Assembly (NCBI GenBank): GCA_965247645.1
Contig: OZ252024.1
Span: 865,683 to 929,682, forward strand
Length of the DNA stretch: 64,000 nucleotides
Source of the DNA: Dehalococcoidia bacterium
GTDB lineage: Bacteria > Chloroflexota > Dehalococcoidia > Lucifugimonadales > UBA2985
Direction of reading: 5' to 3'
The notes beneath the pieces were generated by a model that worked only from the letters and a program-made list of their open reading frames with translations, did no database searches and was not told where the DNA came from. A program made the position numbers and the translations under genes. Numbering within the stretch: position 1 is the stretch's first letter; each line of letters starts with the position of its first letter. Below are positions 18,292 through 34,300 of this stretch, piece after piece.

Positions 18292-18794
18292 AGCTGTTCT
18301 CCTCTATTGTCGATACTACTTGATTTGTGAGCCGCAAAACCGGATACACCACAAAGACCGGATTGAGCGCGCACGCCCGCATTACACGGGTTAACGGACG
18401 GCCACCTCAATATGAATCTTGAATACAGCATTGCACGGAAGGCCATATCGAACATCGCACAGCGCATCTTGGCACAGTCTTTGTAACACACGTTAAGATA
18501 GTGCTGCAAGGGCGGGTATTTGTACAATGAGTTGGGCAGGCCAACACTCATAGCCATAACCGCCCATCAAAGGCTAAGGCAAGGCTGTTGGCAACCACCA
18601 AGAGTGGGACGGCGACAAACTCATATGGGCCTCCTCGGCTAGGGCATGAACCGTGATGGGACTGGCGCAATGCCCTATGTGATCTATCGAACAGTTCTCT
18701 AGGCGACCCCCCAAGCCCACCTAACTGGACAAAATCAAGAACCTTCTCGCTCAGGTTCGAGTTGGCCATGTAATCGGTGTTTTACCTAGCTCGG

Positions 18795-19140
18795 TGAGGC
18801 GCAAGCCGGAGTTGTGATGAGCGGGAGCTGGGAGAGACGGCGACCAAGGCCCGCGCCGCTATCGTCAGCTCCATCACCTGCCTGGAGCGCTTCCGTCGCT
18901 CCACCGCGTCAGGCCCCCGCCGCTACCCTCTGGCAGACTACATCAAGAAGAGGATGCGGGACTTCTTCGACCTGCTGGTCGGCGATGAGGTCCACGAGTA
19001 CAGAGGTGTTCAACACCCTGCGGGGGGCGTTGTCGAAGGCGTTGACCAGCGGCTCCAAAAGACTTCTGATCACCTACCAGCAACCGCTGTTGGCCTCCCC
19101 CGACGGCTGTATTTGGGGCGAGACGGTGGTCGACCCCAGG
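18795..19140 (+). pseudogene. Fragment of a DEAH/SNF2-like helicase (motif II region), decayed
   Basis: The frame gives ...RYPLADYIKKRMRDFFDLLVGDEVHEYRG. Similarity then continues weakly in another frame (GSKRLLITYQQPLL). There is no start and no complete domain. Confidence 0.3.
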
Positions 19141-19397
19141 ACCGATTAGGTAATCGTCCAGGCGCCGCCCTTATCCGAGGAGACGCTCTTTACCAAAGAG
19201 AAAGGTGCGCCGCCTACCCCCTAAAACATCTCCCACTTGTTAGGTGGCAAATTTGGAAGTATCATAAACTGACTTTTCATAGAACTCAGTGTAGTAACCT
19301 CAGCAGATAGTTGTGTGCCTTAAGTTGTGTGGCACTAGTTTTCAAGCCAGCTTGGCGACGCATGCCTCGCACGAGACAGGTGTGAGGTACGTTTTCT

Positions 19398-22300
19398 ATG
19401 CGAACTAGATCCAGGTTCCGGGGATTGGCACTAGTGGCCGCGATGGCGCTTGTCATCTTGCTCTCCGGGTCCTCCGGCCCGTTGAACACGTTTGCGCAGG
19501 CACAACCCCCGGAACAGCCGTCCGGGCTGCAGGCCCTAACCGGCGACACCCAGGTAAAGTTGAGCTGGCATAACCCCGGCAATGCGTCGATTACCGGGTA
19601 CCAGTACCAGCAAAAGATTGGGGGCGTTTTCGGCAGTTGGGCCGACATCGCCGGTAGTAACGCGCTGACCACGTCCCACATCGTGACCGGCCTGACCAAC
19701 GGCACGTCCTACACATTCCATGTCCGCGCCGTGAACGCGGCCGGGGAGAGCGCTCCGACCGGCGAGCAGTCCGCGACTCCGGCGGCGGCATCTTACGCTC
19801 CGGCCAGACCGCGAAACTTTTCCGCCACGCAGACTGGTGTCAGCCAGGTTGAGTTGACGTGGGACGCGCACCGTTACCCGCTGACCGTCACCGGTTATGA
19901 GTACATCGCCGCCGACGGCAGCGGCACCGTATGGAAAACCATCCCAGGCAGCGATTCCAGCACCGTCTCCCACACCGTCACCGGCCTGAGCGCCGTTCCC
20001 ACATACACCTTCGCTGTCCGCGCCGTCAACAGCGCCGGTTCAACTGAGTCCGACTCCCGGTCCGTGACTATCGTCGCCAAACCGGCGGCGCCCGACTCAT
20101 TCTCTGCCGTCGCGGGCGACGGACAGGTGTGGCTTCGCTGGAGAAGCCCCGCCGATTTCACCATATCCGCGTATGAGTACCGGCAGAAGGAGGGCGCCGA
20201 CGCCTTAGGCGATTGGCAGGCAATCCCCGGGAGCAGGTCCGGGACCACCTTCCACATCGTGACCGGCCTGACCAACGGCGCGTCCTACACCTTCCAGCTC
20301 CGCGCCGTGAATGCCGCGGGAGAAAGCGATGCGTCCGGCGAGCAGTCCGCGACTCCGGCGACGGCGTCTTCGGCCCCGGTCAAACCCGAAGGCTTTTCCG
20401 CCGCGCAGACCGGCATCGGCCAAGTGGAGTTGACGTGGGAGGCGAGTTCCAACCCGTTGAACGTCACCGGTTACCAGTTCAAGCAGAACAGCGGCTCTTG
20501 GACCACGATCTCGGAGAGCGATCACAGCGCCGTCTCCCACATCATCACTGGCCTGACCCAGGGCGTCGTGTACACCTTCGCCGTCCGCGCCGCCAACAGC
20601 TTCGACGAAAGCGCCTCCTCCGGGGCCCAGCCCGTGACTGTCGTCGCCAAATCGGCGGCGCCCGACCCATTCGCCGCCGAGGCCGGCGACACCCAGGTGC
20701 GGCTGACCTGGGATGACCCCGTCAATGCGTCCATAACCAAGTACCAGGTGTTTCAGTTTCCTGAGAGCATCAAGCTGATCTCTGACGACCGTGCGGACGA
20801 CGACGAGCTAGGGTGGTCAGTCGCCGTGGACGGCGACACCCTGGTGATTGGGGCACTTGGGGACGACCCCAACAATACCGGCGCGGCCTACGTCTTCACT
20901 AGGGACGCACGGGGCTGGTACCAGGTGGGCAAGCTCACCGCTTTAGTTCGCAGGGGTGATGCCGGCTTCGGGCATTCCGTCGCTGTGCACGGCGACACCA
21001 TCGTCGTTGGCGCGTACGAGGAGGACCACCCCGACCCCCCCAACGTCGATATGGGCGATGTTGGCGCTGCATACGTCTTCACCAGGCCCGCCACCGGCTG
21101 GGCCGACATGACTCAGACGGCCAGGCTCACCGCCTCCGACGCTGTGGCGAACGACGAGTTCGGAACTTCGGTGGCTGTGCACGGCGACACGATCGTGGTC
21201 GGGGCGCCCGAGGAAGACACCGGAGCGAGGGGCTCGGCCTACATCTTTACCAGGCCCGCAAACGGCTGGGCCGACATGACTGAGACGGCCACGCTGATAG
21301 GCCAGTCGGACGGCGACCGGTTCGGTCGCTCCGTAGCGGTGCATGGTGACACGGTCGTCGTGGGAGCGCACGAAGTGGGCGACAACTACCGAGGAGAGGC
21401 TTATGTATTCACCAAGTCCGCCGCCACCGGCGTCTGGCACGACTGGGATAAAAAGAAAGCAAACGTCGCAACTGGCAGGCTGACCGCCTCCGACCGCGCC
21501 ACCAACGACAAGTTCGGCTATTCCGTAGCCATGGACGGAGACACCATCGTGGTTGGCGCGCTCTACAACGACTACGACGACACCGACGGCGACACCGATG
21601 ACGATGAGGGTGCGGCCTACGTCTTCACCAAGCCCGCCGCCGGGTGGGCCACTGGAAATGAGACGGCCAAGCTTACCGCCTCCGACGGAGCCGAGAACGA
21701 CCAGTTTGGAATCTCCGTCGCGGTGGACGGCAACACCGTCATGGTTGGAGCGGACCAAGACGACAGCAAGCGCGGTACAGTGTACGTGTTCACCAAGCCA
21801 GACGGCGGCTGGGCCAACGATACAGATTCAGACGATGATGGTGAATTCGACCACACCACTGAGACGACCACGCTCACGGCCTACGATCGCAGTCAGAATG
21901 ACCGGTTCGGCAACTCCGTGGCGGTCGACGGCGACACCGTGTTGGTCGGGGCGGCCGGGGACGATAGCGCTAAGGGTTCGGCCTACGTGTTCGGCACCGA
22001 AGCGGAGTGGGCCGACATCCCCGGCAGCGGAGCGGGGACTACGTCTCACATCGCGACTCGTCTGCCCAACGGGGCCGAGCACACCTTCCGTGTCCACGCG
22101 GTGAATGCGGCCGGAGAGGGCGGTGCGTCCGAAGTGGACGAGACGCCGGTGGCGGCGACGTTCGGCCCCTCCAGACCCGGAGACTTCACCACCAATCAGA
22201 CCGGCATCGGCGAGGTGCGCTTGGCGTGGACCGCGAGCGCTAAACCTTTGACCGTCAGGCATTATACGTTCAAACAGGGCAGTCAAAATTGGGCCAAGAT

Positions 22301-25300
22301 CGACGAAAGCGATTCGAGCACCGCCTCCCACACGGTCACCGGCCTGACTGCGGGGACCAAATACACTTTCGCCGTCCGCGCCGTCAACGGTGGCGGTCAA
22401 AACTCATCTCCCAGCAAGGAAGTAACTATAGAAGCCCGGGCCGCGGCGCCCACCGGGTTCACCGCAGACGCGGGCGACGAGCAGGTGAAGCTGAGTTGGG
22501 ACAATCCCGTCGCCGACTCGCCGCCCATAGACAAGTACCAGCACTTGCAGATAGACCAGAGCAAGCTGACCGCCGCCGACGGCCTCCTGGGCGACCTGTT
22601 CGGATATTCGGTGGCGGTGGACGGCAACACCGCCGTGATCGGGGCGTACCAAAACGATCCTGGCGAAAGCGGCAACACCACCTCCAACGCCGGTGCGGCC
22701 TACGTCTTTACCAGGAGCTCGCCCACCGATCCGTGGAGCCAGGTAGCTAAACTCACCGCTTCCGACGGCGCGGAGAACGACGAGTTCGGAATTTCCGTCG
22801 CGGTGGACGGCAACACCGCCGTGATCGGGGCGCACCAAAACGATCCTGGCGAAAGCGGCAACACCATCTCCAATGCTGGCGCGGCCTACGTCTTCACCAA
22901 GCCCACCGACGGCTGGGATAGCGACGATGACGACATCATTAACGAGACCGCCAAGCTCACCGCCTTCGGCGCTGCAGCGGATGACGAGTTCGGAATCTCC
23001 GTCTCCGTCGCCGGCGACACCATCCTCGTGGGGGCGCACCAAAACGACCAAAGTGCCACTGTGACCAATTCCGGCGCGGCCTACGTCTTCACCAAGTTCG
23101 GCGGCCTCTGGGGCAACGCTCCGGTCTCAGGAGACCACAGAGTAGAGACCGCCAAGCTCATCGCCTCGGACGGCGCGGCAAACGACGAGTTCGGAATCTC
23201 CGTCGCGTTGGACGGCGACACCGCCGTGATCGGGGCGCGTCAGGACGACACCAGGAACGGTTCGGCCTACGTGTTCACGAAGGTCTCCGGCGTGTGGAGC
23301 CAGGAGGCGAAGCTGATAGCCTCGGACGGCGCGGCGGACGACGAGTTCGGAATCTCCGTCGCGGTGGACGGCGAGACCACCGTGATCGGGGCGCGTCAGG
23401 TCGACGCCAAGAACGGTGCGGCTTACGTATTCATCAAGGTCTCAGGCGTGTGGAGCCAGAAGGCGAAGCTCATCGCCGCGGACGGCGCGGCGGACGACGA
23501 GTTCGGAATCTCCGTGGCCGTGGAGGGCGACACCATCGTGGTGGGGGCGCACCAGGACGACGACAACGGCGATCTATCTGGCTCGGCCTACGTCTTCACC
23601 CGGGACTCCGCCGGTGGATGGGGCCAGAAAGCCAAGCTCACTGCCTCCGACGCCGCAGAGGGGGACCGCTATGGGTATTCCGTCGCTATCAGCGGCGACA
23701 CCGTCCTGGTTGGCGCCCCCTACAACGACTACGACGACACCGACAGCGACACCAATGACGATGAGGGTGCGGCGTATTTCTTGAGCGTTTTGGAGTGGGT
23801 CGACATAGTAGACACCCTGGATAGCGACGCTGGGACCAGATCTCACATCGTCGCCGGCCTGACGAACGACGAGGAACACACCTTCCAGGTGCGGGGCGTG
23901 AACGCCGCAGGCGCGGGTTTGGCCTCGGCCCGCGCCGGTAGTACGCCCATGTTTGCGATACCGGACCCGCCGGACGGGCTGACCGCGGACGCGGGCGATG
24001 CCGTGGTGGCCCTGACCTGGGACGACCCCGAAGATTCGACAATAGGGAAGTACCAACTGCTCCAGATTACTCAGGGCCGCATGCTGACCGCCTCCTCCAC
24101 CGACGACCCGGTGGCGCGGGGCGACGGGTTCGGAATCTCCGTGGCGTTGGACGGCAATACCGCGGTGATCGGGGTGTATCAAGACGACCACACCGACGAC
24201 GGCAACACCATCGGCAATGCCGGTTCGGCCTACGTCTTTACCAGGAGCTCGTCTACCGATCCGTGGAGCTGGGCGGCCAAGCTCACCGCCGATGACGGCG
24301 CGGCGAACGACGAGTTCGGAATCTCCGTGGCGGTCGACGGCGACACCATCGTGGTGGGAGCGCACCAAAACGACAGCAGCAAAGGCGCCGCCTACGTCTT
24401 CACCTGGAATTCGAGTAACAGTAAATGGGAACAGAAGGCCAAGCTCACCGCTTCCGACGCCGCAGCGAACGACGAGTTCGGAATCTCCGTGGCTGTGCAC
24501 GGCAACACCATCGTAGTGGGAGCACACCAAGATGACGACGCCACCAACGGCGACAATTCCGGTTCGGCCTACGTCTTCACTAAGCCCGCGGCCGGCTGGG
24601 CCACCGGCGCCGAGACCGCCAAGCTCACCGCCGATGACGCCGCGGCGGACGACGAGTTCGGAATCTCCGTGGCCGTGCACGGCGACACCGTCGTAGTGGG
24701 AGCGCACGGAAACCAAAACACGGTTGACGGCACCGATGTGAGCACCGGCGCGGCCTACGTCTTCACCAAGCCCGAGAGCGGCGGCTGGGCCACCGCCACC
24801 GAGACCGCCAAGCTCACCGCCGATGACGCCGCGGCGGACGACGAGTTCGGAATCTCCGTGGCCGTGCACGGTGACACCGTCGTGGTCGGGGCGCACAAGT
24901 ACGATGTCGGCGTCGGCACCGAGAAGGCTAACGCCGGTGCGGCCTACGTCTTCACCAAGCCCGAAACCGACGCCAACGGCGACAGCTCGATAGACTGGAA
25001 AGACTGGGGCTCCCTGGATGACGACGGCAAGGCCAAATTGACTGCGAAGCTCATCGCCTCCGACGCTGCGAGAGGAGACGCGTTCGGGATTTCCGTGGCG
25101 GTGGACGATAACGAGGACACCATCGTGGTCGGGGCCTACCTGGACGACGACAATGGCGACAATTCCGGCTCGGCTTACGCCTTCACACGGGATTCTAACT
25201 CCGGCAAGTGGAGCCATACGGCCAAGCTCACCGGCCCCTCCCGTGGCAAGGACGACTGGTTGGGGCATTCCGTTGCGGTGGTGGGCAATACCGTCATCGC

Positions 25301-28300
25301 CGGAGCGGGAAAGTCCAACATCAGCGGCCCAGATTCAGGCGCCGTCTACCTGTGGGTAGTCCCCGGTTGGGCCGACATCGCCGATAGCCGCGCGACGACC
25401 ACGTCCCACACCGTCACCGGTCTGACCAACCGGGTCGAGTACAGCCTTCAGGTCCGCGCGGTGGACAAAGTGGAAGGCACCGGCCCTCCCTCGGACGTCA
25501 GGGCCACACCGTTAAAGCCGAGGCCAGCGAAGCCGACTGAGCTTTCCGCTGCGCCCGGCGATACGCGGGTGAGGCTGAGCTGGGAACTCCCAGGCGAGAG
25601 CTCGCCGCCAATCACCAGCTACCAGCTATGGCAGCATGCCGAGAATGCCGTGCTGACCGCCGATACCCGGGAGGCGAACGACGAGTTCGGGTATGCCGTA
25701 GCGATAGACGGCGACACCGCCGTGGTCGGAATGCCCGGGGAGGACAACCCCGATAATTCCGGCGCCGCATTCGTATACACCAGGGACCCATTGGGCACGT
25801 GGAGCCAGGTGGCCAGGCTCAGACCCAGGGATCCGGGTACTAACTATAGATTCGGACTATCTGTGGCGGTACATGAAGACACTTCGAATGGCGACACGAT
25901 AGTCGTTGGCGTTCCCGACCACACGAACAAGACAGGGGCAGTATACGTATTCGGTGAGCCCGCCACCGGCTGGGCCAACGATGAAGATGGAGATGGAGAT
26001 GGAAACGTCGACCACACCACGGAAACGGCAAAGTTCCTAGCCTCCGACGGCGCGGAGGACGACGAGTTCGGGATTTCCGTAGCGGTGGACGGCGACACCG
26101 TCGTGGTTGGGGCACACCTGGACGACGACAATGGCACCAGCTCCGGCTCGGCATACGTCTTCACCAAGTCACCCGACGTCGCCTGGGCCGACGCCACCGA
26201 GACCGCCAAACTCACCGCTTCCGATGGCGCGGCGGACGACGAGTTCGGAATCTCGGTGACGATCGACGGTGACACCATCGTGGTTGGGGCCAGCGGAGAC
26301 GATAGTAGTACGGGTTCGGCCTACGTCTTCACCAAGCCCGCCACCGGCTGGGCCAACAGCGCAGGTGACCAGGTAGCCAAGCTAACCGCCTACTTCCGAG
26401 TCGATGGCGACGGTTTCGGGCGTTCAGTAGCAATCGACGGTGACACCATCGTGGTTGGAGCGCCCTACAACGACTACGACGACGACGACAACGATACCAA
26501 TGACGATGAGGGCGCGGCCTACGTGTTCACCAAGCCCGATACCGGCTGGGCCTACAGCCCAGGCACCGAGACGGCCATGCTCACCGCCTCCGACGGCAGC
26601 GGCGACGACCAGTTCGGGAGTTCGGTAGCGGTGGACGGTGACACCGTCATTATCGGGGCGGACGCCCTGAACTCCACCAGGTCAGGATCGGCTTACGTCT
26701 TCGCCAAGCCCGAGAGCGGCGGCTGGGTCGATAGTACCGAGGCGGCCAAACTCACCGGATCTGGAACCGCTGGTGGCGACAGGTATGGACTTTCCGTGGC
26801 AGTCTCCGGCGTCACCGTCATGGTCGGGGCAAACGGGCAAGGCGACAACGATCAGGGCGCCGCCTACATATATGGCATCCAGGACTGGAACCCCATTGAC
26901 GGGAGCACGGGAGAGACCACATCCCACTTTGCGACTGGCCTGACCAACGGTGTGGAGCACACCTTCGCCGTCCGCGCGGTGAACGACGGCGACGCTGGCC
27001 TCCCTGCCCAGAAATCCGCGGATACGGCGACGCCGGGATCGCCCCCCCTGAAGCCCAGGAACTTCTCCGCTGTGCAGACCGGCGCAAAAGAGGTGCGTTT
27101 GGAGTGGGGACAGACTGCCGATCCCCTGAACGTCACCGAGTATGAGTACATCCAGGACGACATTTCTAATGACGTAGACACTCCCGCTTGGGCTACCATT
27201 TCAGATAGCGATTTCGCCACCGTCTCCTACACCGTCTCCGACTCCAACCTGAGCGCGGGCTCCACTTACACCTTCGCCGTCCGCGCCGTCAACAGCGCCG
27301 GCGAGGGCGTCCCCTCCATCTCCCTGTTAGTTACAATCGTGACCGCCCCCGCGGCGCCCACCAGGCTCCGAGCCGAGCCGGGCGACGAGCAGGTAATTCT
27401 GAGTTGGGACCTCCCCGCCGAGGGCTCGCCGCCGGTCACAAGCTACAAGTACCAGCAAGGGGCGAACGGCGCTTGGAGCGACATAACGGAAAGCGGGGCT
27501 TCGACCACCTCCCACGTGGTTTCAGACCTGACCAACAACCAACGGTACACCTTCCGGGTCCGCGCCGTGAACGCGGCCGGAGAAGGCGCTCCGTCCGAAG
27601 TGGCTGCGACCCCGAGACGGGCCGGCTCGCGTCCCGCGGCCCCCGACGACTTCCTAGCCGTGCAGACCGGAGTCGGCCAGGTGAAGCTGAGTTGGGGTAC
27701 TCCCCAAGACCAGGACCCGCCAGTCACCAGGTATGCGTACCGTCAGGACGACAGTTGGACCACTATCCAGGGAAGCAACTCCAGCGCTACCTCCCACACC
27801 GTACGCGGTCTGAGCGAGGAAACCACATACATCTTTGCCGTCCGCGCCATCAATAGCCGCGGTGAACAGGACTCGGAATCCATTCCCGTGACAATAGAAG
27901 CCAAGCCCAAGCGGCCCACCGGGTTCAGCGCTACCGCCGGCGACACCCAGGCAACGGTCGAATGGCGTGTGCCAGATGACGAGGAAGATCCGCCAATTGA
28001 CAAGTACCAGCTTTTGCAGGTCCCCCAGAGCACGCTGACCGCCGAAGACCGCGCGGCCAACGACGAGTTCGGGTATTCGGTAGCGATAGGTGGCAACACC
28101 GCCGTGGTTGGGGCACACCAGGACGACGACGATGGTGATAGCTCCGGCGCCGCCTACGTATTTACCAAGGACCTCACCGGTAAGTGGACGCAGGTAGCCA
28201 AGCTCACCGCCTCCGACGGCGCAGCGAACGACGAGTTCGGAATCTCCGTCGCTATCGACGGAGACACCATCGTGGTTGGGGCGCACAAGGCCGACTACAT

Positions 28301-31300
28301 CGATCTCAACGACATTGACAACAATTTGACTGATTCCGGCGCGGTCTACGTATTCACCAAGTCACCCGACGTCGCCTGGGCCGACGCCACTGAGACCGCC
28401 AAGCTCACTGCCTCCGACGGCGCGGCGAAGGACGAATTCGGGATCTCCGTCGCCATCGACGTTGATACCGTCGTGGTCGGAGCGCACCAGCCCAGCTATC
28501 AAGACGAAAACGATGTGACCGTCGATGTGGGGCCCGGCGCGGCCTACGTCTTCACCAAATCCGGCAACGTCTGGGCCACCGCCACCGAGACTGCCAAGCT
28601 CATCGCTTCCGACGGCGCGGCGAACGACGAGCTTGGAATCTCCGTGGCCATCGACGGTGACACCGTCGTGGTTGGGGCGCGCCTGGACGACGACAATGGC
28701 GACAGTTCCGGCGCGGTCTACGTATTCACCAAGTCACCCGACGTCGCCTGGGCCGACGCCACTGAGACCGCCAAGCTCACTGCCTCCGACGGCGCGGCGA
28801 AGGACGAATTCGGGATCTCGGTGGCCATCGACGTTGATACCGTCGTCGTCGGAGCGCACCTGGAAAACGCCAATGATGACGACGTAGACACCACTGACGA
28901 CGTCGCTGACTCCGGCGCCGCCTACGTCTTCACCAGGAATGCCGGTGTGTGGGACAATGGGGTAAAGCTCACCGCTTCCAACGGCGACATGGGCGATGGG
29001 TTCGGCAAATCAGTTGCAGTGAACGGCAATACCGTCGTCGTCGGGGCGTATCTGTTCGACCGCGACGACCGCGTTGTTCCTGGCTCCGGTTCGGCCTACG
29101 TGTTTGCCAGGGATCCGAACTCCGGCAAGTGGAGCCAGACGCTCAATCTCGCCGGCCCCGACCCCGACCAGAACGACTGGTTCGGACACTCCGTTGCGAT
29201 AGGAGATGACGGTACTCTCCTGGCAGGCGTGCCCCAGGACGACGGTAGTCGCGGTTCGGCATACGCGATCAACATATCAAATGCGAAGTGGGTGGACTTC
29301 GTCTCAACAGAATTGACCATGTCCGATGACCGGTACTACGTCTACCGGGCGCTCCATCTGACCAACGACCAAGAGTACGGCTTTCGGGTGCGTGCCGTGA
29401 ACGCCGCAGGCAATACTCGTTCTGCGGAAACCGACGCGGCCACGCCCAAGCTTGCGAAGCCGGGCAAACCCGAAGATCTGGCCGCGAAGGCAAGAGACCG
29501 TGCCGTGGAGTTGAGTTGGAAACTCTCGGACGATTCCACCCTAGATCACTACGATGTACTGCAGCCTCCCGAGCAGACCAAGCTCACCGCCGGGTCCGAC
29601 AGCGAGGCGGACGGAAAGTTCGGGGAATCGGTAGCGGTGGATAGTGACACCCTCGTGGTCGGGGCGTATCAGCACGACGTAGACGGCAAATCCAACGCCG
29701 GCGCCGCCTACGTCTTCACCAGAAACCCGATCTCCGGTGAGTGGAGCGAGGTGGCCAATCTCACCGCTTCAGATCCGGCGGTAAACGACGAGTTCGGGTA
29801 TTCCGTGGCTGTGGACGGTGACACCATCGTGGTTGGAGCGCGCCAGGACGTCACTCGCAACGGCGCCGCCTACGTCTTCACCAAGGTCTCAGGCGTGTGG
29901 AGCCAGAAGGCGAAGCTCATAGCCTCGGACGGCGCGGCCAACGACGAGTTCGGATTCTCCGTGGCTGTGCACGGCGACACTATCGTGGTTGGGGCGCACC
30001 AGGACGACGACAATGGCGATATATCTGGCTCGGCCTACGTCTTCACCAAATCCGGCAACGTCTGGGCCACCGCCACCGAGACCGCCAAGCTCATCGCCTC
30101 TGACGGCGAGGAGGGCGATCGCCTTGGACGTTCCGTTGCGGCGCATGGAACCACCGTTGTGGTAGGAGCGAACCTGCACGACATCGGTACCAACGATAAT
30201 GCCGGCGCGGCCTACGTCTTTACCGAGCCAGCCAACGGGTGGGCCAACATAGATAATACTACTGCGGCCAAACTCACCGCCGACGGTGGCGAGCAATTCG
30301 GGTCTTCCATAGCGGTGGACGGTAACACTGTCGTGGTCGGGGCCCGCAAGAATAACGCTGCTTACGTATTCATTCTGGGCTCTGGTATGTGGTCCCAAGC
30401 GGCAAGGCTCGAGGCTTCTGACAGCGACGGGTCCGAAGAATTCGGGTCCTCCGTCGCGGTACGGGGTAGCACCATCGTGGTCGGGGCGGACTCCACCGAT
30501 ATCGACCCTTTCGATAGTGATGACGCTCGCTCAGGCGCGGCTTACCTCTTCACCAAGACGGACGGGGCCGTCTGGACCAACGATCCGAACAAAGACCACA
30601 GAACGGAGTCAGGCAGGCTCACTTTACCCATCGAAGAAGGGGCCGTAGAGAAGTCCGACGAGTTCGGAAACTCCGTCGCCCTGGACGGCCAGAGCATCGT
30701 GGTCGGGGCGCCCGAGGGCAGCGATGGCTTCGGTTCGGTCTACGTGTCGGGTATCCCGCAGTGGTCCCCTATTTCCGGCAGCAATGCTACCACCACCTTC
30801 CACACAGTCAGAGGCCTGACCAACGGCATGGAGTACACCTTCCAGGTCCGCACGGTGGACAAGTTGGACGATGTTGGCGCCGGCCCGCCCTCGGACATCG
30901 TTCGGGCCACGCCTGAGCGTAACAAAATCCCTGAAGCCATACCCGATGCCTTTACCATCAAAGAAGACACCGCGGAATTCTTCAACGTCATCGCCAACGA
31001 CACGGACATGGATGAGGACACCCTCAGCGTAACCGCGGTGAGCGAGCCCAGCAACGGCACAGCGGAGATCGTGGAAGGCTCGATGACGGAGGTCACCTAT
31101 ACGCCGGATGCCGACTTCCACGGTTCCGACTCGTTCACCTACGAGGTGAGCGACGGATACGGAGGTACGGATACGGGTAGGGTCGACGTAACCGTCACAC
31201 CGGTGAACGATGCTCCTGATGCCTCCAATGATATCTTCACTGTTTTGGAGAACGCATCGGCCACATCCCTTAACGTAATCGCCAACGACATAGACGTGGA

Positions 31301-32363
31301 TGGGGACACCCTCTCCATCAGTGTGGTCAATGAGGTTGCGGTGATAAGCAGCCCATCAAACGGCGCTGCCGTCATCAAACCGGGTAGCACGACGGAGATC
31401 ATGTACACGCCCAAAGGCAACTTCCGCGGTTCCGACTCCTTCACCTACGAGGTGAGCGATGGAAACGGAGGCACGGACACCGGTACGGTCACTGTCACAA
31501 TTACACAGGCGAACTACATGCCAGGATTCGTCGAGGGCCCTAGCGCCACCCGCACTGTTCCTGAGAATGCGGACGTAGGGACAGCAGTGGGTGGTCCGGT
31601 GACAGCCAGGGACGGGGACAATGACCGTCTGGAATACTGGTTGTCAGGAACAGAAGTGTCAACTTTCGAAGTGGACCGTTGGACGGGGCAACTCACCACA
31701 AGGACCTTGTTGGATTACGAGGTCCAGAGCGAGTACTTGCTGCAGATGAGGGTGCGGGACGGCCGAGATGGCGTCAATGGCATCAACGTGACGATAACCG
31801 TAGTGGACATGGATGAGCCGCCCTCACAGCCAGGAGCCCCTGAAGTAAGCAGCGCCGGCCCGACCGGCCTAGCGGTTAGCTGGACGGCGCCCGATACCCA
31901 GGGGGCGGAGATAACTGACTACGACGTACAGTACCGGGAAGCCGGTGGAGAGTTTCGAGACGCAGGCTACGATGGCGTCGGCCTATCCACGACCCTGGAA
32001 GACCTGAGGCCGGGGACCGGTTACGAGGCGCAGGTGCGGGCCATCAACGCTGATGGGGCCGGCGCTTGGTCGGAATCGGGTCTAGGCGAAACTGAAGAGG
32101 AGCCTCCTACACCGACGCCGGAACCTACGCCTACACCAACGCCGACGCCGGAACCTACGCCTACCCCGAAGCCCACGCTGGAACCTACAGCTACTGTGCC
32201 TCCAGTGTCAACGCCCACACCCACGCCCACGGCGGAGCCATTGCCGCCCGAGGATGGGGACGATGGAGACGGGGGGTTCCCTTGGTGGGCTATCATTGTG
32301 GTAGTGATTGGGATAGTTGCTGGAGTCGTTCTCATCGTTGTGGCGCTACGTAGCCGGAGATAG
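19398..32363 (+). CDS. Giant (4321 aa) secreted surface protein: FN3 modules, six 7-bladed FG-GAP-like propeller blocks, cadherin-like domains, PT linker, C-terminal TM anchor
   Basis: Signal peptide MRTRSRFRGLALVAAMALVILL...TFAQA. FN3 signatures (LTNGxxYTFxVRAVNAAGES). 42 units of D(E)FGxSVAxxGDTxVVGA...GAAYVFT arranged as 6 blocks of 7. Two VNDAP-type cadherin-like domains (FTYEVSDGxGGTDTG) and one cadherin repeat (VPENADVGT...LDYE...VVDMDEPP). Tail is TPEPTPTPTP linker, then GGFPWWAIIVVVIGIVAGVVLIVVALRSRR. Confidence 0.9.
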   Translation: MRTRSRFRGLALVAAMALVILLSGSSGPLNTFAQAQPPEQPSGLQALTGDTQVKLSWHNPGNASITGYQYQQKIGGVFGSWADIAGSNALTTSHIVTGLTNGTSYTFHVRAVNAAGESAPTGEQSATPAAASYAPARPRNFSATQTGVSQVELTWDAHRYPLTVTGYEYIAADGSGTVWKTIPGSDSSTVSHTVTGLSAVPTYTFAVRAVNSAGSTESDSRSVTIVAKPAAPDSFSAVAGDGQVWLRWRSPADFTISAYEYRQKEGADALGDWQAIPGSRSGTTFHIVTGLTNGASYTFQLRAVNAAGESDASGEQSATPATASSAPVKPEGFSAAQTGIGQVELTWEASSNPLNVTGYQFKQNSGSWTTISESDHSAVSHIITGLTQGVVYTFAVRAANSFDESASSGAQPVTVVAKSAAPDPFAAEAGDTQVRLTWDDPVNASITKYQVFQFPESIKLISDDRADDDELGWSVAVDGDTLVIGALGDDPNNTGAAYVFTRDARGWYQVGKLTALVRRGDAGFGHSVAVHGDTIVVGAYEEDHPDPPNVDMGDVGAAYVFTRPATGWADMTQTARLTASDAVANDEFGTSVAVHGDTIVVGAPEEDTGARGSAYIFTRPANGWADMTETATLIGQSDGDRFGRSVAVHGDTVVVGAHEVGDNYRGEAYVFTKSAATGVWHDWDKKKANVATGRLTASDRATNDKFGYSVAMDGDTIVVGALYNDYDDTDGDTDDDEGAAYVFTKPAAGWATGNETAKLTASDGAENDQFGISVAVDGNTVMVGADQDDSKRGTVYVFTKPDGGWANDTDSDDDGEFDHTTETTTLTAYDRSQNDRFGNSVAVDGDTVLVGAAGDDSAKGSAYVFGTEAEWADIPGSGAGTTSHIATRLPNGAEHTFRVHAVNAAGEGGASEVDETPVAATFGPSRPGDFTTNQTGIGEVRLAWTASAKPLTVRHYTFKQGSQNWAKIDESDSSTASHTVTGLTAGTKYTFAVRAVNGGGQNSSPSKEVTIEARAAAPTGFTADAGDEQVKLSWDNPVADSPPIDKYQHLQIDQSKLTAADGLLGDLFGYSVAVDGNTAVIGAYQNDPGESGNTTSNAGAAYVFTRSSPTDPWSQVAKLTASDGAENDEFGISVAVDGNTAVIGAHQNDPGESGNTISNAGAAYVFTKPTDGWDSDDDDIINETAKLTAFGAAADDEFGISVSVAGDTILVGAHQNDQSATVTNSGAAYVFTKFGGLWGNAPVSGDHRVETAKLIASDGAANDEFGISVALDGDTAVIGARQDDTRNGSAYVFTKVSGVWSQEAKLIASDGAADDEFGISVAVDGETTVIGARQVDAKNGAAYVFIKVSGVWSQKAKLIAADGAADDEFGISVAVEGDTIVVGAHQDDDNGDLSGSAYVFTRDSAGGWGQKAKLTASDAAEGDRYGYSVAISGDTVLVGAPYNDYDDTDSDTNDDEGAAYFLSVLEWVDIVDTLDSDAGTRSHIVAGLTNDEEHTFQVRGVNAAGAGLASARAGSTPMFAIPDPPDGLTADAGDAVVALTWDDPEDSTIGKYQLLQITQGRMLTASSTDDPVARGDGFGISVALDGNTAVIGVYQDDHTDDGNTIGNAGSAYVFTRSSSTDPWSWAAKLTADDGAANDEFGISVAVDGDTIVVGAHQNDSSKGAAYVFTWNSSNSKWEQKAKLTASDAAANDEFGISVAVHGNTIVVGAHQDDDATNGDNSGSAYVFTKPAAGWATGAETAKLTADDAAADDEFGISVAVHGDTVVVGAHGNQNTVDGTDVSTGAAYVFTKPESGGWATATETAKLTADDAAADDEFGISVAVHGDTVVVGAHKYDVGVGTEKANAGAAYVFTKPETDANGDSSIDWKDWGSLDDDGKAKLTAKLIASDAARGDAFGISVAVDDNEDTIVVGAYLDDDNGDNSGSAYAFTRDSNSGKWSHTAKLTGPSRGKDDWLGHSVAVVGNTVIAGAGKSNISGPDSGAVYLWVVPGWADIADSRATTTSHTVTGLTNRVEYSLQVRAVDKVEGTGPPSDVRATPLKPRPAKPTELSAAPGDTRVRLSWELPGESSPPITSYQLWQHAENAVLTADTREANDEFGYAVAIDGDTAVVGMPGEDNPDNSGAAFVYTRDPLGTWSQVARLRPRDPGTNYRFGLSVAVHEDTSNGDTIVVGVPDHTNKTGAVYVFGEPATGWANDEDGDGDGNVDHTTETAKFLASDGAEDDEFGISVAVDGDTVVVGAHLDDDNGTSSGSAYVFTKSPDVAWADATETAKLTASDGAADDEFGISVTIDGDTIVVGASGDDSSTGSAYVFTKPATGWANSAGDQVAKLTAYFRVDGDGFGRSVAIDGDTIVVGAPYNDYDDDDNDTNDDEGAAYVFTKPDTGWAYSPGTETAMLTASDGSGDDQFGSSVAVDGDTVIIGADALNSTRSGSAYVFAKPESGGWVDSTEAAKLTGSGTAGGDRYGLSVAVSGVTVMVGANGQGDNDQGAAYIYGIQDWNPIDGSTGETTSHFATGLTNGVEHTFAVRAVNDGDAGLPAQKSADTATPGSPPLKPRNFSAVQTGAKEVRLEWGQTADPLNVTEYEYIQDDISNDVDTPAWATISDSDFATVSYTVSDSNLSAGSTYTFAVRAVNSAGEGVPSISLLVTIVTAPAAPTRLRAEPGDEQVILSWDLPAEGSPPVTSYKYQQGANGAWSDITESGASTTSHVVSDLTNNQRYTFRVRAVNAAGEGAPSEVAATPRRAGSRPAAPDDFLAVQTGVGQVKLSWGTPQDQDPPVTRYAYRQDDSWTTIQGSNSSATSHTVRGLSEETTYIFAVRAINSRGEQDSESIPVTIEAKPKRPTGFSATAGDTQATVEWRVPDDEEDPPIDKYQLLQVPQSTLTAEDRAANDEFGYSVAIGGNTAVVGAHQDDDDGDSSGAAYVFTKDLTGKWTQVAKLTASDGAANDEFGISVAIDGDTIVVGAHKADYIDLNDIDNNLTDSGAVYVFTKSPDVAWADATETAKLTASDGAAKDEFGISVAIDVDTVVVGAHQPSYQDENDVTVDVGPGAAYVFTKSGNVWATATETAKLIASDGAANDELGISVAIDGDTVVVGARLDDDNGDSSGAVYVFTKSPDVAWADATETAKLTASDGAAKDEFGISVAIDVDTVVVGAHLENANDDDVDTTDDVADSGAAYVFTRNAGVWDNGVKLTASNGDMGDGFGKSVAVNGNTVVVGAYLFDRDDRVVPGSGSAYVFARDPNSGKWSQTLNLAGPDPDQNDWFGHSVAIGDDGTLLAGVPQDDGSRGSAYAINISNAKWVDFVSTELTMSDDRYYVYRALHLTNDQEYGFRVRAVNAAGNTRSAETDAATPKLAKPGKPEDLAAKARDRAVELSWKLSDDSTLDHYDVLQPPEQTKLTAGSDSEADGKFGESVAVDSDTLVVGAYQHDVDGKSNAGAAYVFTRNPISGEWSEVANLTASDPAVNDEFGYSVAVDGDTIVVGARQDVTRNGAAYVFTKVSGVWSQKAKLIASDGAANDEFGFSVAVHGDTIVVGAHQDDDNGDISGSAYVFTKSGNVWATATETAKLIASDGEEGDRLGRSVAAHGTTVVVGANLHDIGTNDNAGAAYVFTEPANGWANIDNTTAAKLTADGGEQFGSSIAVDGNTVVVGARKNNAAYVFILGSGMWSQAARLEASDSDGSEEFGSSVAVRGSTIVVGADSTDIDPFDSDDARSGAAYLFTKTDGAVWTNDPNKDHRTESGRLTLPIEEGAVEKSDEFGNSVALDGQSIVVGAPEGSDGFGSVYVSGIPQWSPISGSNATTTFHTVRGLTNGMEYTFQVRTVDKLDDVGAGPPSDIVRATPERNKIPEAIPDAFTIKEDTAEFFNVIANDTDMDEDTLSVTAVSEPSNGTAEIVEGSMTEVTYTPDADFHGSDSFTYEVSDGYGGTDTGRVDVTVTPVNDAPDASNDIFTVLENASATSLNVIANDIDVDGDTLSISVVNEVAVISSPSNGAAVIKPGSTTEIMYTPKGNFRGSDSFTYEVSDGNGGTDTGTVTVTITQANYMPGFVEGPSATRTVPENADVGTAVGGPVTARDGDNDRLEYWLSGTEVSTFEVDRWTGQLTTRTLLDYEVQSEYLLQMRVRDGRDGVNGINVTITVVDMDEPPSQPGAPEVSSAGPTGLAVSWTAPDTQGAEITDYDVQYREAGGEFRDAGYDGVGLSTTLEDLRPGTGYEAQVRAINADGAGAWSESGLGETEEEPPTPTPEPTPTPTPTPEPTPTPKPTLEPTATVPPVSTPTPTPTAEPLPPEDGDDGDGGFPWWAIIVVVIGIVAGVVLIVVALRSRR
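28334..28488 (+). repeat. 155-bp intragenic direct repeat, copy 1
   Basis: 152/155 identity with 28706-28860, offset 372 bp (124 codons, two blades). Encodes SGAVYVFTKSPDVAWADATETAKLTASDGAAKDEFGISVAIDVDTVVVGAH. Confidence 0.85.
28706..28860 (+). repeat. 155-bp intragenic direct repeat, copy 2
   Basis: Only three mismatches to copy 1 (two C>G, one G>C). Confidence 0.85.
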
Positions 32364-32559
32364 GAGAGGAAAAAGCCTCAGGAGCCACCCGGTCAAAACG
32401 TACACCTGGGGAACATCCCGCGGCCGAGGCTCATAGCGCCACGACCAGCTCGAAGGTCGCAGTACGGTACCGCCAGGCCCACCACTTATCATTCGGTCTT
32501 TGTCCTATTTTGTCCCAGGTTGCCCATGACGCATATCTGAGTCGCATCGCCTGACCACC

Positions 32560-33515: not shown

Positions 33516-33655
33516 CCGGTCTCCGTACCAGGGACTAGCGCGAAATCAGTCGCCTCGGCTACGCCGATACAGCGACCTTCGCCATTAGCTCATCGTGGGG
33601 TACGAGCGTTGCCCCGAAGACTTGGGCAAACCTGGCGGCAGCCTGCACATCGTCG

Positions 33656-33855
33656 TCAGCCAACCTCGCTCCTCGCTACCGGCCGCGACTCCAACCAGCT
33701 CGTCATGTCGCTTGCCCTCCACCTGACGGAGTGGGCCCGACCCTGACGGGCCATGGGAACTCTCCGACCTGCATGAGCCGGTAAATCGACGAGCGGCTCA
33801 TACCCGTGATTTCCTCAACCTGTCGACGCCTCAGCAGTCTGTAATCCATTTTCAT
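33656..33855 (-). pseudogene. AlpA-family excisionase/HTH regulator with a frameshift
   Basis: MKMDYRLLRRRQVEEITGMSRSSIYRLMQVGEFPWPVRVGP runs in one frame. The conserved tail VRWRASDMTSWLESRPVA continues in another frame from about 33722. Confidence 0.6.
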
Positions 33856-33879
33856 CACATCCTTATGCTCTTCCGTTCG

Positions 33880-34300
33880 TACCAATTAGGTATCCGGCGC
33901 TCCAGCAAGCCGTTGGGCCGCCGGCCTCCTGCACAGGTCTGTGGGAGCGCCTCTCCTGCGCCGTCAGAGGTTCGAGACTAGCGCTCCTCCGCGAAGAGGG
34001 TTGACTTGGAACCCCTCGCCCCCCTCCCCCGCAACGGCTCGTATCCCGCCGCAAACTCGTTAGTTCTCTGAGGGCTCATGGGACCGCGGCTCTGCAGAAG
34101 AGTGGGAACGATTCGTAGGACGTGCATCACCTCCATGTACGTCTTGGAACGCCACAACGTCCCAGCAAGGAAAATGTAGGCCGGCGCGGCGCCCAAAAGT
34201 AGGTCAATAACTCAAAGCTGAGTCGCGCCTTTTCAGAGTTGCCCGTGCACGAGGTGAACGTCCCAGCCAGTGGTCCTGTTGTCTCCGACAGCACACCCCA
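33880..34300 (-). pseudogene. Heavily decayed tyrosine-recombinase (integrase) remnant
   Basis: Reverse frames give ARLSFELLTY / LGAAPAYIFLAGTLWRSKTYMEVMHVLRIV (compare TGxRxxELLxLxWxDVDxxxxxLxI). A 1-nt-shifted HDLCRRPAAQRLAGAP compares with HDLRHTxAxxLxxAG. Multiple frameshifts and stops. Confidence 0.3.

What the first reader, a model, noticed from the sequence alone, without database searches (positions are those of the whole stretch)
19398..32363. 4321-aa protein with six perfectly regular seven-blade FG-GAP-like propellers
Counting the FGxSVAxxGDT cores gives exactly 7+7+7+7+7+7 = 42 blades in six blocks. The blocks lie at about nt 20760-21990, 22560-23790, 24060-25360, 25650-26880, 28020-29280 and 29570-30760. 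Each block is separated by one to five FN3 modules. The C-terminal end carries two VNDAP-type cadherin-like domains, a classical cadherin repeat, an FN3, a PT linker and a TM anchor. The blades lack the integrin DxDxDG calcium loop. This beads-on-a-string series of propellers is a striking, probably adhesive or S-layer-like architecture taking about 20% of the window.
Basis: partly seen in the sequence, partly recalled or inferred. Interest (0 to 1): 0.55.

Follow-up and report, generated by a model that had tools for sequence, protein, structure and literature searches.

The report
Giant surface protein, propellers nested in FN3
A Dehalococcoidia bacterium encodes an intact 4321-residue, membrane-anchored surface protein. 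Its six integrin-like seven-blade propellers are each inserted inside a fibronectin-III domain, so they hang as side knobs on a long stalk; it is probably a multivalent adhesin with an unknown ligand.

Summary
ORF 19398-32363 (+) is uninterrupted and encodes 4321 aa. Pfam finds 42 FG-GAP_2 repeats, and they fall into six blocks of exactly seven at the coordinates given. The fn3, Big_9/Cadherin_5 (x2) and Cadherin domains, the PT linker and the C-terminal TM helix are all present.

The "beads on a string" reading is wrong in one respect. Each propeller is inserted inside an FN3 domain, between strands C and C'. There are 15 FN3 domains: 9 intact and 6 split at the same HMM position. Joining the two halves in silico restores a full-length FN3 hit, and AlphaFold gives the split halves the same confidence as the intact FN3s.

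The propellers resemble integrin alpha propellers (Foldseek E 1e-18) but lack the integrin calcium loop.

The nested module defines a family: 50 of the 254 retrieved proteins that carry blades have it, in 1-7 copies, always with seven blades. At least one other member appears to lie on a Dehalococcoidia MAG chromosome. An independently assembled ortholog (77-86% nt identity) has the same layout, so an assembly artefact is unlikely.

The best explanation is a Sec-exported, C-terminally anchored, very acidic multivalent binding fibre. The ligand is unknown. I rate it a new variant of a known kind, of moderate interest.

The parts
19398..32363 (+). Whole gene: 4321-aa protein (449 kDa, pI 4.17, no Cys)
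   Evidence: ORF list and translation; composition. The exact protein is not in the 15-billion-protein collection.
19398..19502 (+). N-terminal Sec-type signal peptide (aa 1-35: basic n-region RTRSRFR, hydrophobic core, ..TFAQ/AQ)
   Evidence: Read from the sequence. Family members keep a hydrophobic N-terminus ending ..TSAQ. Cleavage is inferred, not tested.
19503..20651 (+). Four intact FN3 domains (aa 36-418), alternating two subtypes
   Evidence: Own FN3 HMM gives full-length hits (HMM 2-96) of 118-131 bits; Pfam fn3.
20649..22151 (+). Nested module 1: FN3 N-half (aa 418-454), seven-blade propeller P1 (aa 469-867), FN3 C-half (aa 861-918)
   Evidence: Half-hits HMM 3-41 and 34-94. The spliced halves give one hit, HMM 5-94, 83 bits. 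AF2 model 2 gives the split halves pLDDT of about 78-84 and 73-90, like the intact FN3s, with strands A, B, C | C', E, F, G.
22161..22439 (+). Intact FN3 (aa 922-1014)
   Evidence: HMM 2-96, 123 bits.
22440..23948 (+). Nested module 2: FN3 N-half (aa 1015-1056), propeller P2 (aa 1066-1460), FN3 C-half (aa 1466-1517)
   Evidence: AF2 model 1 has pLDDT 86.8 and pTM 0.88. Foldseek top hits are integrin alpha propellers, E 8.5e-19.
23961..25511 (+). Nested module 3: FN3 N-half (aa 1522-1560), propeller P3 (aa 1576-1989), FN3 C-half (aa 1990-2038)
25521..27017 (+). Nested module 4: FN3 N-half (aa 2042-2083), propeller P4 (aa 2095-2495), FN3 C-half (aa 2490-2540)
27039..27905 (+). Three intact FN3 domains (aa 2548-2836)
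   Evidence: HMM full-length hits of 116-122 bits.
27900..29450 (+). Nested module 5: FN3 N-half (aa 2835-2878), propeller P5 (aa 2889-3293), FN3 C-half (aa 3309-3351)
   Evidence: It contains the longest exact internal DNA repeat, 114 nt at 28334 and 28706.
29454..30914 (+). Nested module 6: FN3 N-half (aa 3353-3392), propeller P6 (aa 3407-3787), FN3 C-half (aa 3788-3839)
30921..31499 (+). Two bacterial cadherin-like / Big_9 (tandem-95) domains (aa 3842-4034)
   Evidence: Pfam Big_9 1.4e-40 and Cadherin_5 1.4e-29, two stretches each. NCBIfam tand_rpt_95 scores 121.6 bits against a cutoff of 90.
31554..31790 (+). Classical cadherin repeat (aa 4053-4131) with PEN, DGDND, LDYE and DMDEPP motifs
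   Evidence: Pfam PF00028 scores 38.2 bits against a cutoff of 28.8. PDB sequence hits include CELSR1 and cadherin-23. The motifs were read.
31818..32078 (+). Membrane-proximal FN3 of a different subtype (aa 4141-4227)
   Evidence: Best Pfam fn3 stretch, aa 4143-4226; own HMM gives 20 bits.
32094..32249 (+). Pro/Thr-rich linker (aa 4233-4284)
   Evidence: Read from the sequence.
32250..32360 (+). Conserved C-terminal anchor: acidic EDGDDGDGGFPWW, 22-aa TM helix, RSRR
   Evidence: Sequence. The same D-G-G-F-P-W-W + TM + Arg-rich tail occurs in 11 family members. No known sorting-domain model reaches its cutoff.
18292..19397 (.). 1.1-kb upstream spacer with no convincing gene; weak promoter-like site at 19237-19265; GAGG-like RBS 8 nt before the ATG
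   Evidence: The promoter match is no better than chance (1 found, 0.5 expected).
33516..36018 (.). Gene-poor downstream stretch with mobile-element remnants (AlpA-like 33703-33885 on the - strand; rve_3 integrase C-terminal fragment 35355-35594 on the + strand)
   Evidence: This is context, not part of the protein.

Best explanation
The gene encodes a Sec-exported cell-surface fibre, anchored in the membrane by its C-terminus, from a Dehalococcoidia (Chloroflexota) bacterium.

A single C-terminal TM helix with an Arg-rich cytoplasmic stop holds it in the cytoplasmic membrane. A Pro/Thr-rich linker, one FN3, one classical cadherin repeat and two cadherin-like Big_9 domains lead outward into a rod of 14 further FN3 domains.

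Six of those FN3 domains carry a complete seven-blade, integrin-alpha-like FG-GAP_2 propeller in place of the short C-C' loop. Connectors of only 3-5 residues join each side. The propeller's first strand (KLTAxD) closes blade 7 ('velcro'), so the propeller's N- and C-termini are neighbours and fit onto the FN3 hairpin. The propellers therefore sit as six closely tethered lateral knobs on the rod, not as links in the chain.

Each knob shows a face made of very variable, Asp/Asn-rich 2-3 loops. Each propeller position is conserved as its own ortholog across relatives. The protein most likely acts as a multivalent adhesin or ligand-capture protein with several different binding specificities.

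Shown: the ORF, the domain content, the nesting, the fold, the family and the copy-number variation. Inferred: export, orientation, the close tethering of the knobs, and the binding function. The ligand is unknown.
For: Architecture:
- Pfam finds 42 FG-GAP_2 repeats plus fn3, Big_9/Cadherin_5 and Cadherin, and the blades fall 6x7.
- An HMM of the eight intact FN3s hits HMM 2-44 immediately before, and about 45-94 immediately after, each of the six propellers.
- Spliced halves give single full-length FN3 hits of 58-83 bits. Inter-propeller stretches hit only as permuted halves.
- AF2 of module 2 has pLDDT 86.8 and pTM 0.88.
- AF2 of FN3-4 + module 1 + FN3-6 has pLDDT 85.1. The split FN3 halves are as confident as the two intact FN3s and show all seven strands.

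Fold:
- Foldseek top 50 hits are all integrin alpha propellers, E down to 8.5e-19.
- The profile hits integrin alphaM/X/4/6/L sequences, E down to 9e-11.

Surface location: an N-terminal signal-like sequence and a C-terminal PT linker + TM + RSRR, with the tail conserved in 11 relatives. No catalytic domain was found.

Family: 50 of the 254 retrieved proteins that carry blades contain Fn-P7-Fc modules, in 1-7 copies, and complete propellers always have seven blades.

Positional orthology: each propeller is 58-74% identical to its counterpart in P0121/P0122, against 47-55% to its own paralogs.

Binding face: the 2-3 loops are 3-19 aa long and 26% Asp. The protein has pI 4.17.

Not an artefact: an independent contig, L011, is collinear over 9 kb at 77% and over 2 kb at 86% nt identity, and has the same module order.
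Against: - No ligand, expression or localisation data exist.
- I could not inspect model coordinates or PAE. Contact between the two FN3 halves is inferred from HMM logic, pLDDT and DSSP strands, not seen directly.
- No known sorting signal or secretion partner lies nearby.
- The closest genome representative (aroA 96% aa identity) does not carry the gene next to aroA, and relatives' copies are broken by IS elements. The protein is therefore dispensable in some lineages.
- 'Adhesin' rests on analogy with integrins, cadherins, FN3 rods and giant bacterial adhesins.
Confidence: 0.6

Rival explanations
1. It is a host-interaction factor ('eukaryote-like protein') of a sponge- or invertebrate-associated Dehalococcoidia. 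On this reading the integrin-like propellers, cadherin and FN3 domains bind host extracellular matrix or cell-surface molecules and help the bacterium persist in the host.
For: - A GPP34 gene lies 5 kb upstream. GPP34 is reported in 97% of sponge-symbiotic Dehalococcoidia genomes, and fn3 and cadherin domains are reported as enriched in sponge symbionts (PMC11706023).
- Relatives' loci are crowded with transposases, as in many symbionts.
- Mobile-element remnants flank the gene.
Against: - The habitat of the window and of samples ERZ25067187, ERZ25766727 and ERZ26167216 is unknown to me.
- More distant aroA relatives (about 70% identity) carry isolate names (CBN3, CB9) that, from memory, look like pelagic ocean stations. 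This was not checked with any tool.
- GPP34 is not exclusive to symbionts.
- No host ligand has been tested.
Confidence: 0.2
2. It is a structural envelope or S-layer component of a bacterium that lacks peptidoglycan. On this reading it forms or braces the protein surface layer rather than binding external ligands.
For: - The Thr/Pro-rich linker + C-terminal TM + basic tail is the anchoring style of haloarchaeal S-layer glycoproteins. There is a weak match to TIGR04216 halo_surf_glyco (E 0.005).
- From my own knowledge, not tested here, cultivated Dehalococcoidia have a proteinaceous envelope.
- The protein is very acidic.
Against: - The TIGR04216 match is 15 bits against a cutoff of 400 and lies on low-complexity sequence.
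- Module number varies from 1 to 7 among relatives. The gene is missing from the syntenic site in the closest genome and is IS-disrupted in others. This is unlike an essential lattice protein.
- A 449-kDa rod is atypical for S-layer protomers.
Confidence: 0.12
3. The propellers are catalytic or carbohydrate-processing, as in family 11 rhamnogalacturonan lyases, which are related to FG-GAP/VCBS propellers. On this reading the protein is a surface-tethered multi-enzyme.
For: RGL11 propellers are catalytic and cluster near FG-GAP/VCBS in propeller classification (PMC9218822). The acidic loops could bind Ca2+ as lyases do.
Against: No hit to any enzyme family in Pfam or NCBIfam. All the best structural and profile matches are integrin alpha propellers. 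No polysaccharide-utilisation genes are nearby.
Confidence: 0.05
4. The six-fold repeat is an assembly artefact, or the ORF is a non-functional relic.
For: The gene is highly repetitive and sits between gene-poor stretches with mobile-element remnants. Homologues elsewhere are fragmented.
Against: - The 12,966-nt frame has no stop codon.
- Internal DNA repeats are only 60-86% identical, and the longest exact repeat is 114 nt.
- Every FN3 N-half has its C-half.
- Independent contig L011 has the same module order, and 41 blades from its start within P1.
- Full-length relatives lie on 2-4 Mb contigs; the one examined, carrying P0122, is a 2.2-Mb contig whose name ends in '_c'.
Confidence: 0.03

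Closest known systems
Integrin alpha-subunit beta-propeller (FG-GAP repeats, PF01839)
   Same: Seven four-stranded blades with the FG...GAP consensus. The N-terminal strand is read as closing the last blade. Integrin alpha chains are the best structural matches (Foldseek E 8.5e-19; TM 0.66 on propeller-only chains) and the only PDB sequence-profile matches.
   Different: - No DxDxDGxxD calcium hairpins between strands 1 and 2.
- No thigh or calf legs and no beta-subunit partner.
- Six propellers per chain, each nested in an FN3.
- Bacterial, with sequence identity of only 14-18%.
Ordinary bacterial FG-GAP_2 (PF14312) proteins of about 800-950 aa, e.g. P0001-P0010 and 'FG-GAP repeat protein' of Acidobacteriota, Planctomycetota and Anaerolineales
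   Same: The same repeat family, 40-48% identical over a propeller. They are widespread: 87,666 representative clusters at E<=1e-3.
   Different: They have 14 consecutive blades (two tandem propellers) with no FN3 host, no cadherin domains and no GFPWW-TM tail.
Uncharacterised giant relatives P0121 (4941 aa, 7 propellers), P0122 (4033 aa, 5), P0123 (4744 aa, 6), P0127 (2947 aa, 4) and the L011 ortholog
   Same: - The same Fn-P7-Fc nested module and interspersed FN3s.
- The same PT linker and DGG-F-P-W-W + TM + RSRR tail in P0121-P0123; P0127 ends in a variant (..SNLWW + TM + ..SRRQI).
- P0122 has the same domain order minus one module. L011 has the same order.
   Different: At most about 70% aa identity in any region, and mosaic: the N-terminus is closest to P0122 (67%) and the C-terminus to P0124 (60%). 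None carries a name or a description in the sources.
Giant repeat adhesins of bacteria (RTX adhesins such as LapA/MpIBP, SiiE) and Vibrio cholerae Bap1/RbmC. From my own knowledge, not tested here.
   Same: A long rod of Ig-like, FN3 or cadherin-like domains that presents ligand-binding modules. Bap1/RbmC combine an FG-GAP/VCBS-type propeller with a nested domain.
   Different: - Here the anchor is a C-terminal TM helix, not a T1SS retention module or outer-membrane plug.
- There are no RTX repeats.
- The propeller is the insert and FN3 is the host, the reverse of Bap1, where a beta-prism is inserted in the propeller.
Haloarchaeal S-layer glycoprotein / PGF-CTERM-type anchoring
   Same: A Thr/Pro-rich stalk followed by a short motif, a TM helix and a basic tail at the extreme C-terminus.
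   Different: There is no PGF motif. No sorting-domain model reaches its cutoff (Loki-CTERM 12.5 bits against 19.9; halo_surf_glyco 15 against 400). No archaeosortase or exosortase gene was seen among the neighbours examined.

Membership tests
FG-GAP_2 repeat family (Pfam PF14312) | Repeats score above the Pfam gathering threshold | tested here: met
   1980.6 bits against a cutoff of 23, in 42 stretches.
FG-GAP_2 repeat family (Pfam PF14312) | Repeats close into a seven-blade beta-propeller | tested here: met
   Blocks of exactly seven. AF2 models have pLDDT 85-87 with 4 strands per blade. Foldseek hits seven-blade integrin propellers.
Integrin alpha subunit | DxDxDGxxD Ca2+-binding hairpins between strands 1 and 2 of blades 4-7 | tested here: not met
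   All 42 blades have a 4-residue D-G-D-T type hairpin. The motif occurs only at aa 810 and 2197, in a different loop.
Integrin alpha subunit | Thigh and calf-1/2 leg domains, a TM helix with a GFFKR cytoplasmic motif, and pairing with a beta subunit | tested here: not met
   No integrin leg families in the Pfam scan. The tail is ...ALRSRR. No beta-subunit-like gene among the neighbours.
Fibronectin type III (Pfam PF00041) | Domain scores above threshold with full-length coverage | tested here: met
   394.9 bits against a cutoff of 25. There are 9 full-length own-HMM hits, plus 6 that become full-length after in-silico removal of the propeller.
Cadherin (Pfam PF00028) | Domain above threshold and Ca2+-binding motifs (xEx, DxD, LDRE-like, DxNDxxP-like) | tested here: met
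   38.2 bits against 28.8 at aa 4053-4131. PEN, DGDND, LDYE and DMDEPP were read. Ca2+ binding itself was not tested.
Tandem-95 / Big_9 / Cadherin_5 bacterial cadherin-like repeat | Score above the NCBIfam and Pfam cutoffs | tested here: met
   NF012211 121.6 against 90. Big_9 138.5 against 23.6 and Cadherin_5 102.3 against 26.5, two stretches each.
Known C-terminal sorting domains (LPXTG, PEP-CTERM, PGF-CTERM, MYXO-CTERM, Loki-CTERM, T9SS) | Match to a curated sorting-domain model at its cutoff | tested here: not met
   NCBIfam scan of the last 177 aa at E<=10. The only sorting-domain model listed was Loki-CTERM, at 12.5 bits against a cutoff of 19.9. There is no LPXTG or PEP motif in the sequence.
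S-layer glycoprotein | Match to an S-layer family model; lattice formation; high abundance | tested here: not met
   TIGR04216 scores 15.1 bits against 400 and NF041431 scores 6.5 against 600. Lattice formation and abundance cannot be tested with these tools.
Nested Fn-P7-Fc giant protein family (defined here) | Seven-blade FG-GAP_2 propeller flanked directly by FN3 HMM positions of about 2-44 and 45-94 | tested here: met
   6 of 6 propellers in the window protein. 50 of the 254 retrieved blade-bearing proteins have at least one such module.

The most novel reading that the evidence does not exclude
The Fn-P7-Fc unit may be a previously undescribed composite receptor module: a propeller grafted onto the C-C' hairpin of an FN3. 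It appears to have been multiplied and then kept as position-specific orthologs in marine Dehalococcoidia.

Together with the conserved DGG-F-P-W-W + TM + RSRR tail, which could be a lineage-specific sorting signal, it might mark a new class of multi-specific surface receptors. These would mediate attachment of such bacteria to an animal host matrix or to particles.
Probability: 0.2. Interest if true: 0.7.

Novelty: new variant of a known kind. Interest (0 to 1): 0.45.

Why it matters
Dehalococcoidia are abundant in oceans, sediments and sponges, and their cell surfaces are almost unstudied. This gene takes 20% of the window.

If the propellers bind distinct ligands, as their position-specific conservation suggests, the family would be a candidate for how these bacteria attach to hosts, particles or minerals. 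It would also offer a natural scaffold for displaying propellers on a rod.

For annotation, it shows that the 'FN3' stretches between propellers are permuted halves. This explains why domain callers report weak or missing fn3 hits there.

Tried and rejected
1. A whole-protein search of the 5.8-billion-protein database timed out.
2. A 105-aa junction query (last blade + FN3 C-half of module 2) found nothing, because too few words were shared. That search was wasted.
3. Exact look-ups of the giant protein and of the neighbouring aroA product found nothing on record.
4. phmmer of one module against PDB sequences found nothing. Only the profile reached the integrins.
5. Synteny with the closest genome representative (L004, aroA 96% aa identity) covers only window 15863-17712, so it could not show whether that genome has an ortholog elsewhere.
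6. Known sorting signals and S-layer models are not met.
7. The promoter and terminator scans are no better than chance.
8. The GFPWW tail was not found on any other protein in the window or in the fetched loci, so its use as a general sorting tag is not supported by the data in hand.
9. Literature searches for FG-GAP_2/PF14312, FG-GAP with Dehalococcoidia/Chloroflexi/sponge, and propeller-in-FN3 nesting found no description of this architecture.
10. I considered an AF2 test with orphan FN3 halves but rejected it, because complementary orphan halves could pair artificially.
Full report
**1. The observation**

The window has one uninterrupted ORF from ATG 19398 to the stop at 32363 on the + strand. 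It encodes 4321 aa and covers 20.3% of the window.

Pfam assigns 42 FG-GAP_2 (PF14312) stretches, at 1980.6 bits against a gathering score of 23. It also assigns fn3 (394.9 bits), Big_9/Cadherin_5/Cadherin_4 (two stretches each) and one classical Cadherin domain (38.2 bits against 28.8). NCBIfam adds tandem-95 repeat (121.6 against 90).

A regex for the core FGxSVAxxGDTxVVGA, and an HMM built from the blades, both find 42 blades in six runs of exactly seven. The runs span aa 469-867, 1066-1460, 1576-1989, 2095-2495, 2889-3293 and 3407-3787.

**2. Not an artefact**

- Blades average 45% identity.
- DNA repeat families are 60-86% identical, and the longest exact internal repeat is 114 nt.
- An independently assembled contig from another metagenome (L011; ERZ26167216, ctg386227) is collinear with window 20967-29995 in one 9.4-kb alignment at 77% identity, and with 30400-32464 at 86%.
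- Translating L011 in three frames and scanning with the same HMMs gives 41 blades. The contig starts inside P1. The order matches the window...Fc F Fn-P7-Fc Fn-P7-Fc Fn-P7-Fc F F F P7-Fc Fn-P7-Fc ... F.

**3. The topology is nested, not beads on a string**

I built an HMM (96 positions) from the eight intact FN3 domains in the N-terminal 3840 residues and searched the whole protein with it.

- It gives nine full-length hits: the eight intact domains plus the membrane-proximal FN3.
- It gives twelve half-hits. Six cover HMM 2-44 and end 4-5 residues (read from the sequence) before the velcro strand that opens each propeller: aa 418-454, 1015-1056, 1522-1560, 2042-2083, 2835-2878 and 3353-3392.
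- The other six cover about HMM 45-94 and start right after each propeller: aa 861-918, 1466-1517, 1990-2038, 2490-2540, 3309-3351 and 3788-3839.

Every N-half therefore has exactly one C-half, with a propeller between them.

Removing the propeller in silico turns each pair into one full-length FN3 hit (HMM 3-94, 58-83 bits). The result aligns column for column with the intact FN3s, and the propeller replaces the 5-8-residue C-C' loop.

The full layout is: SP - F F F F - [P1] - F - [P2][P3][P4] - F F F - [P5][P6] - Big_9 x2 - Cadherin - F - PT linker - TM. Here [P] means an FN3 carrying a propeller.

**4. Structure prediction**

- Module 2 (aa 1014-1522): mean pLDDT 86.8, pTM 0.88.
- FN3-4 + module 1 + FN3-6 (aa 324-1014): pLDDT 85.1, pTM 0.72.

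In the second model the split FN3 halves score pLDDT of about 78-84 (N-half) and 73-90 (C-half). This is the same range as the two intact control FN3s (about 60-90).

DSSP shows the full strand set: A, B, C before the propeller and C', E, F, G after it. Each blade has four strands, which I assign as FGxSVAV, TxVVGA, GAAYVF and xAKLTA.

From the sequence together with the DSSP strands, the strand before the first FG (KLTAxD) supplies the fourth strand of blade 7. This is the velcro closure, and it puts the propeller's two ends side by side. That geometry is what is needed to sit on a beta-hairpin. In module 2 the FN3 C strand and this velcro strand are predicted as one continuous strand, residues 33-44.

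Connectors are 4-5 residues on the N side and 3-5 on the C side in all six modules (read).

I could not see coordinates or PAE, so direct contact between the halves remains an inference.

**5. Fold**

Foldseek against the PDB returns only integrin alpha headpieces in the top 50. E-values go down to 8.5e-19, and the TM-score is 0.64-0.66 on propeller-only chains.

A profile of the modules hits integrin alphaM, alphaX, alpha4, alpha6 and alphaL sequences at E 9e-11 to 3e-5. The single sequence hits nothing.

A 2021 modelling study listed FG-GAP_2 among families without a solved structure and modelled it on an integrin template (PMC8078820).

The integrin calcium hairpin is absent. The strand1-strand2 turn is D-G-D-T in nearly all blades, and DxDxDGxxD occurs only twice, in another loop.

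**6. Chemistry**

The protein is 449 kDa with pI 4.17. It has 643 acidic against 262 basic residues and no cysteine.

The loops between strands 2 and 3 lie on the ligand-binding face in integrins (my own knowledge). Here they vary from 3 to 19 residues and are 26% Asp and 11% Asn.

**7. Organism and context**

The neighbouring aroA product is 96% identical to that of a complete Dehalococcoidia MAG chromosome (OZ253466.1), and 65-71% identical to other Dehalococcoidia MAGs. Only window 15863-17712 is collinear with that closest genome, so the giant gene is not at the same site there.

The neighbours are housekeeping or unrelated genes: a trypsin-like/PD40 multi-propeller protein, GPP34, a lactonase, aroA, a CMD-family protein, TauE and a CAR-like reductase.

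The gene is flanked by gene-poor DNA. Downstream lie an AlpA-like gene and an integrase fragment.

**8. The family**

A full HMMER scan of 1.84 billion representatives with modules 2+3 gave 87,666 clusters at E<=1e-3, so FG-GAP_2 propellers are common.

I classified the 254 retrieved proteins that carry blades. These came from the hits and the top 150. Fifty carry at least one Fn-P7-Fc module, with 1 to 7 modules per protein. Complete propellers always have seven blades.

- P0122 (4033 aa) lies on a 2.2-Mb contig whose name ends in '_c'. It has the window's order minus one module.
- P0121 (4941 aa) has seven modules.
- P0127 lies on a contig whose length equals that of Dehalococcoidia MAG OZ252245.1.

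The more numerous proteins of about 900 aa have 14 uninterrupted blades and no FN3.

Each window propeller is 58-74% identical to its positional counterpart in P0121/P0122, but only 47-55% identical to its paralogs in the same chain. The six propellers are therefore old and individually maintained, not homogenised.

The protein is mosaic. Its N-terminus is closest to P0122 (67%), and its C-terminus is closest to P0124 (60%) and to the fragment P0277 (80%).

Eleven relatives share the tail DGG-F-P-W-W + TM + Arg-rich. No curated sorting-domain model reaches its cutoff. The motif is on no other protein in the DNA I hold.

In some relatives the homologue is cut up by transposases.

**9. Mechanism**

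Shown:
- an intact giant ORF;
- a signal-like N-terminus;
- a C-terminal PT linker, TM helix and basic stop;
- a rod of FN3 and cadherin-type domains;
- six nested integrin-like propellers;
- position-specific conservation;
- variable acidic face loops;
- no catalytic domain.

Inferred: Sec export and anchoring in the cytoplasmic membrane with the N-terminus distal. From typical domain sizes (my own estimate), the rod would be roughly 70-85 nm long. Each propeller would be a closely tethered lateral binding site. Together this makes a multivalent adhesin or ligand-capture fibre with probably several specificities.

Rivals:
- a host-matrix adhesin of a sponge symbiont. This is a special case of the best explanation. 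It is suggested by the nearby GPP34 gene and by PMC11706023, but the habitat is unknown;
- an S-layer component (weak support);
- a surface enzyme (no support);
- an artefact (contradicted).

**10. Comparison and novelty**

The domains are all known. Giant adhesins built from FN3/cadherin rods are known, and bacterial integrin-type propellers have been described, sometimes in tandem (PMC3192720).

What I did not find described is the FN3-hosted propeller module and the family built from it.

I rate it a new variant of a known kind and of moderate interest. It is a neat and well-supported architectural finding, but its function is unknown.

Noticed in passing
window 8123-12280 (+): A second large multi-propeller surface protein (1385 aa). 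It has a lipoprotein-like N-terminus, a long Pro/Thr/Ala-rich linker, a trypsin-like peptidase domain and 14 PD40 (TolB-type) repeats.
   Followed up: partly
window 13310-13975 (-): A GPP34 (Golgi phosphoprotein 3 family, PF05719) gene, E 1.5e-42. A 2025 paper reports GPP34 in 97% of sponge-symbiotic Dehalococcoidia genomes and proposes it as a symbiosis factor. This hints at a host-associated origin for the window.
   Followed up: partly
window 33516-36018: A gene-poor 2.5 kb stretch downstream of the giant gene. It holds an AlpA-type excisionase/regulator ORF (33703-33885, - strand, E 2.8e-13) and the C-terminal fragment of an rve_3 integrase/transposase (35355-35594, + strand), probably the decayed remains of a mobile element.
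   Followed up: partly
window 18292-19397: A 1.1-kb spacer upstream of the giant gene with only short overlapping ORFs and no Pfam hits. One ORF contains a ..LLVGDEVHEY.. stretch that resembles a DEAD/DEAH helicase motif II, possibly a gene remnant.
   Followed up: partly
window 15863-17712 vs L004 9623-11470: Only the aroA region is collinear (95.5% nt identity) with the closest complete Dehalococcoidia chromosome (OZ253466.1). Both flanks differ within 10 kb, which indicates strong local rearrangement between close relatives.
   Followed up: partly
L001 10001-16094, L002 and L003 8032-13007: In related long-read metagenome contigs, homologues of the giant gene are truncated or split and are interleaved with several transposase genes (DDE_Tnp_1, IS66, rve, Transposase_mut). 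This looks like IS-mediated decay of the family in IS-rich genomes.
   Followed up: partly
window 37636-40617 (+): A 993-aa carboxylic-acid-reductase-like enzyme (AMP-binding, PP-binding carrier, NAD_binding_4 terminal reductase).
   Followed up: no
window 32250-32360 and the C-termini of P0121-P0124, P0130, P0138, P0144, P0145, P0188, P0194 and P0195: A conserved extreme C-terminus: an acidic Gly/Asp run, F-P-W-W, a TM helix and an Arg-rich end. It has the tripartite look of a sorting signal but matches no curated model. I saw it only on this protein family.
   Followed up: partly
window 19503-30914 (FN3 domains): The FN3 domains come in two subtypes. One has ..AGDTQVxLSW..ITxYQ.. and ..VRAVNAAGEG. 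The other has ..QTGxGQVELTW..PLxVTGYEY.. and ..FAVRAVNSxG. All six propellers are inserted in the first subtype only.
   Followed up: partly
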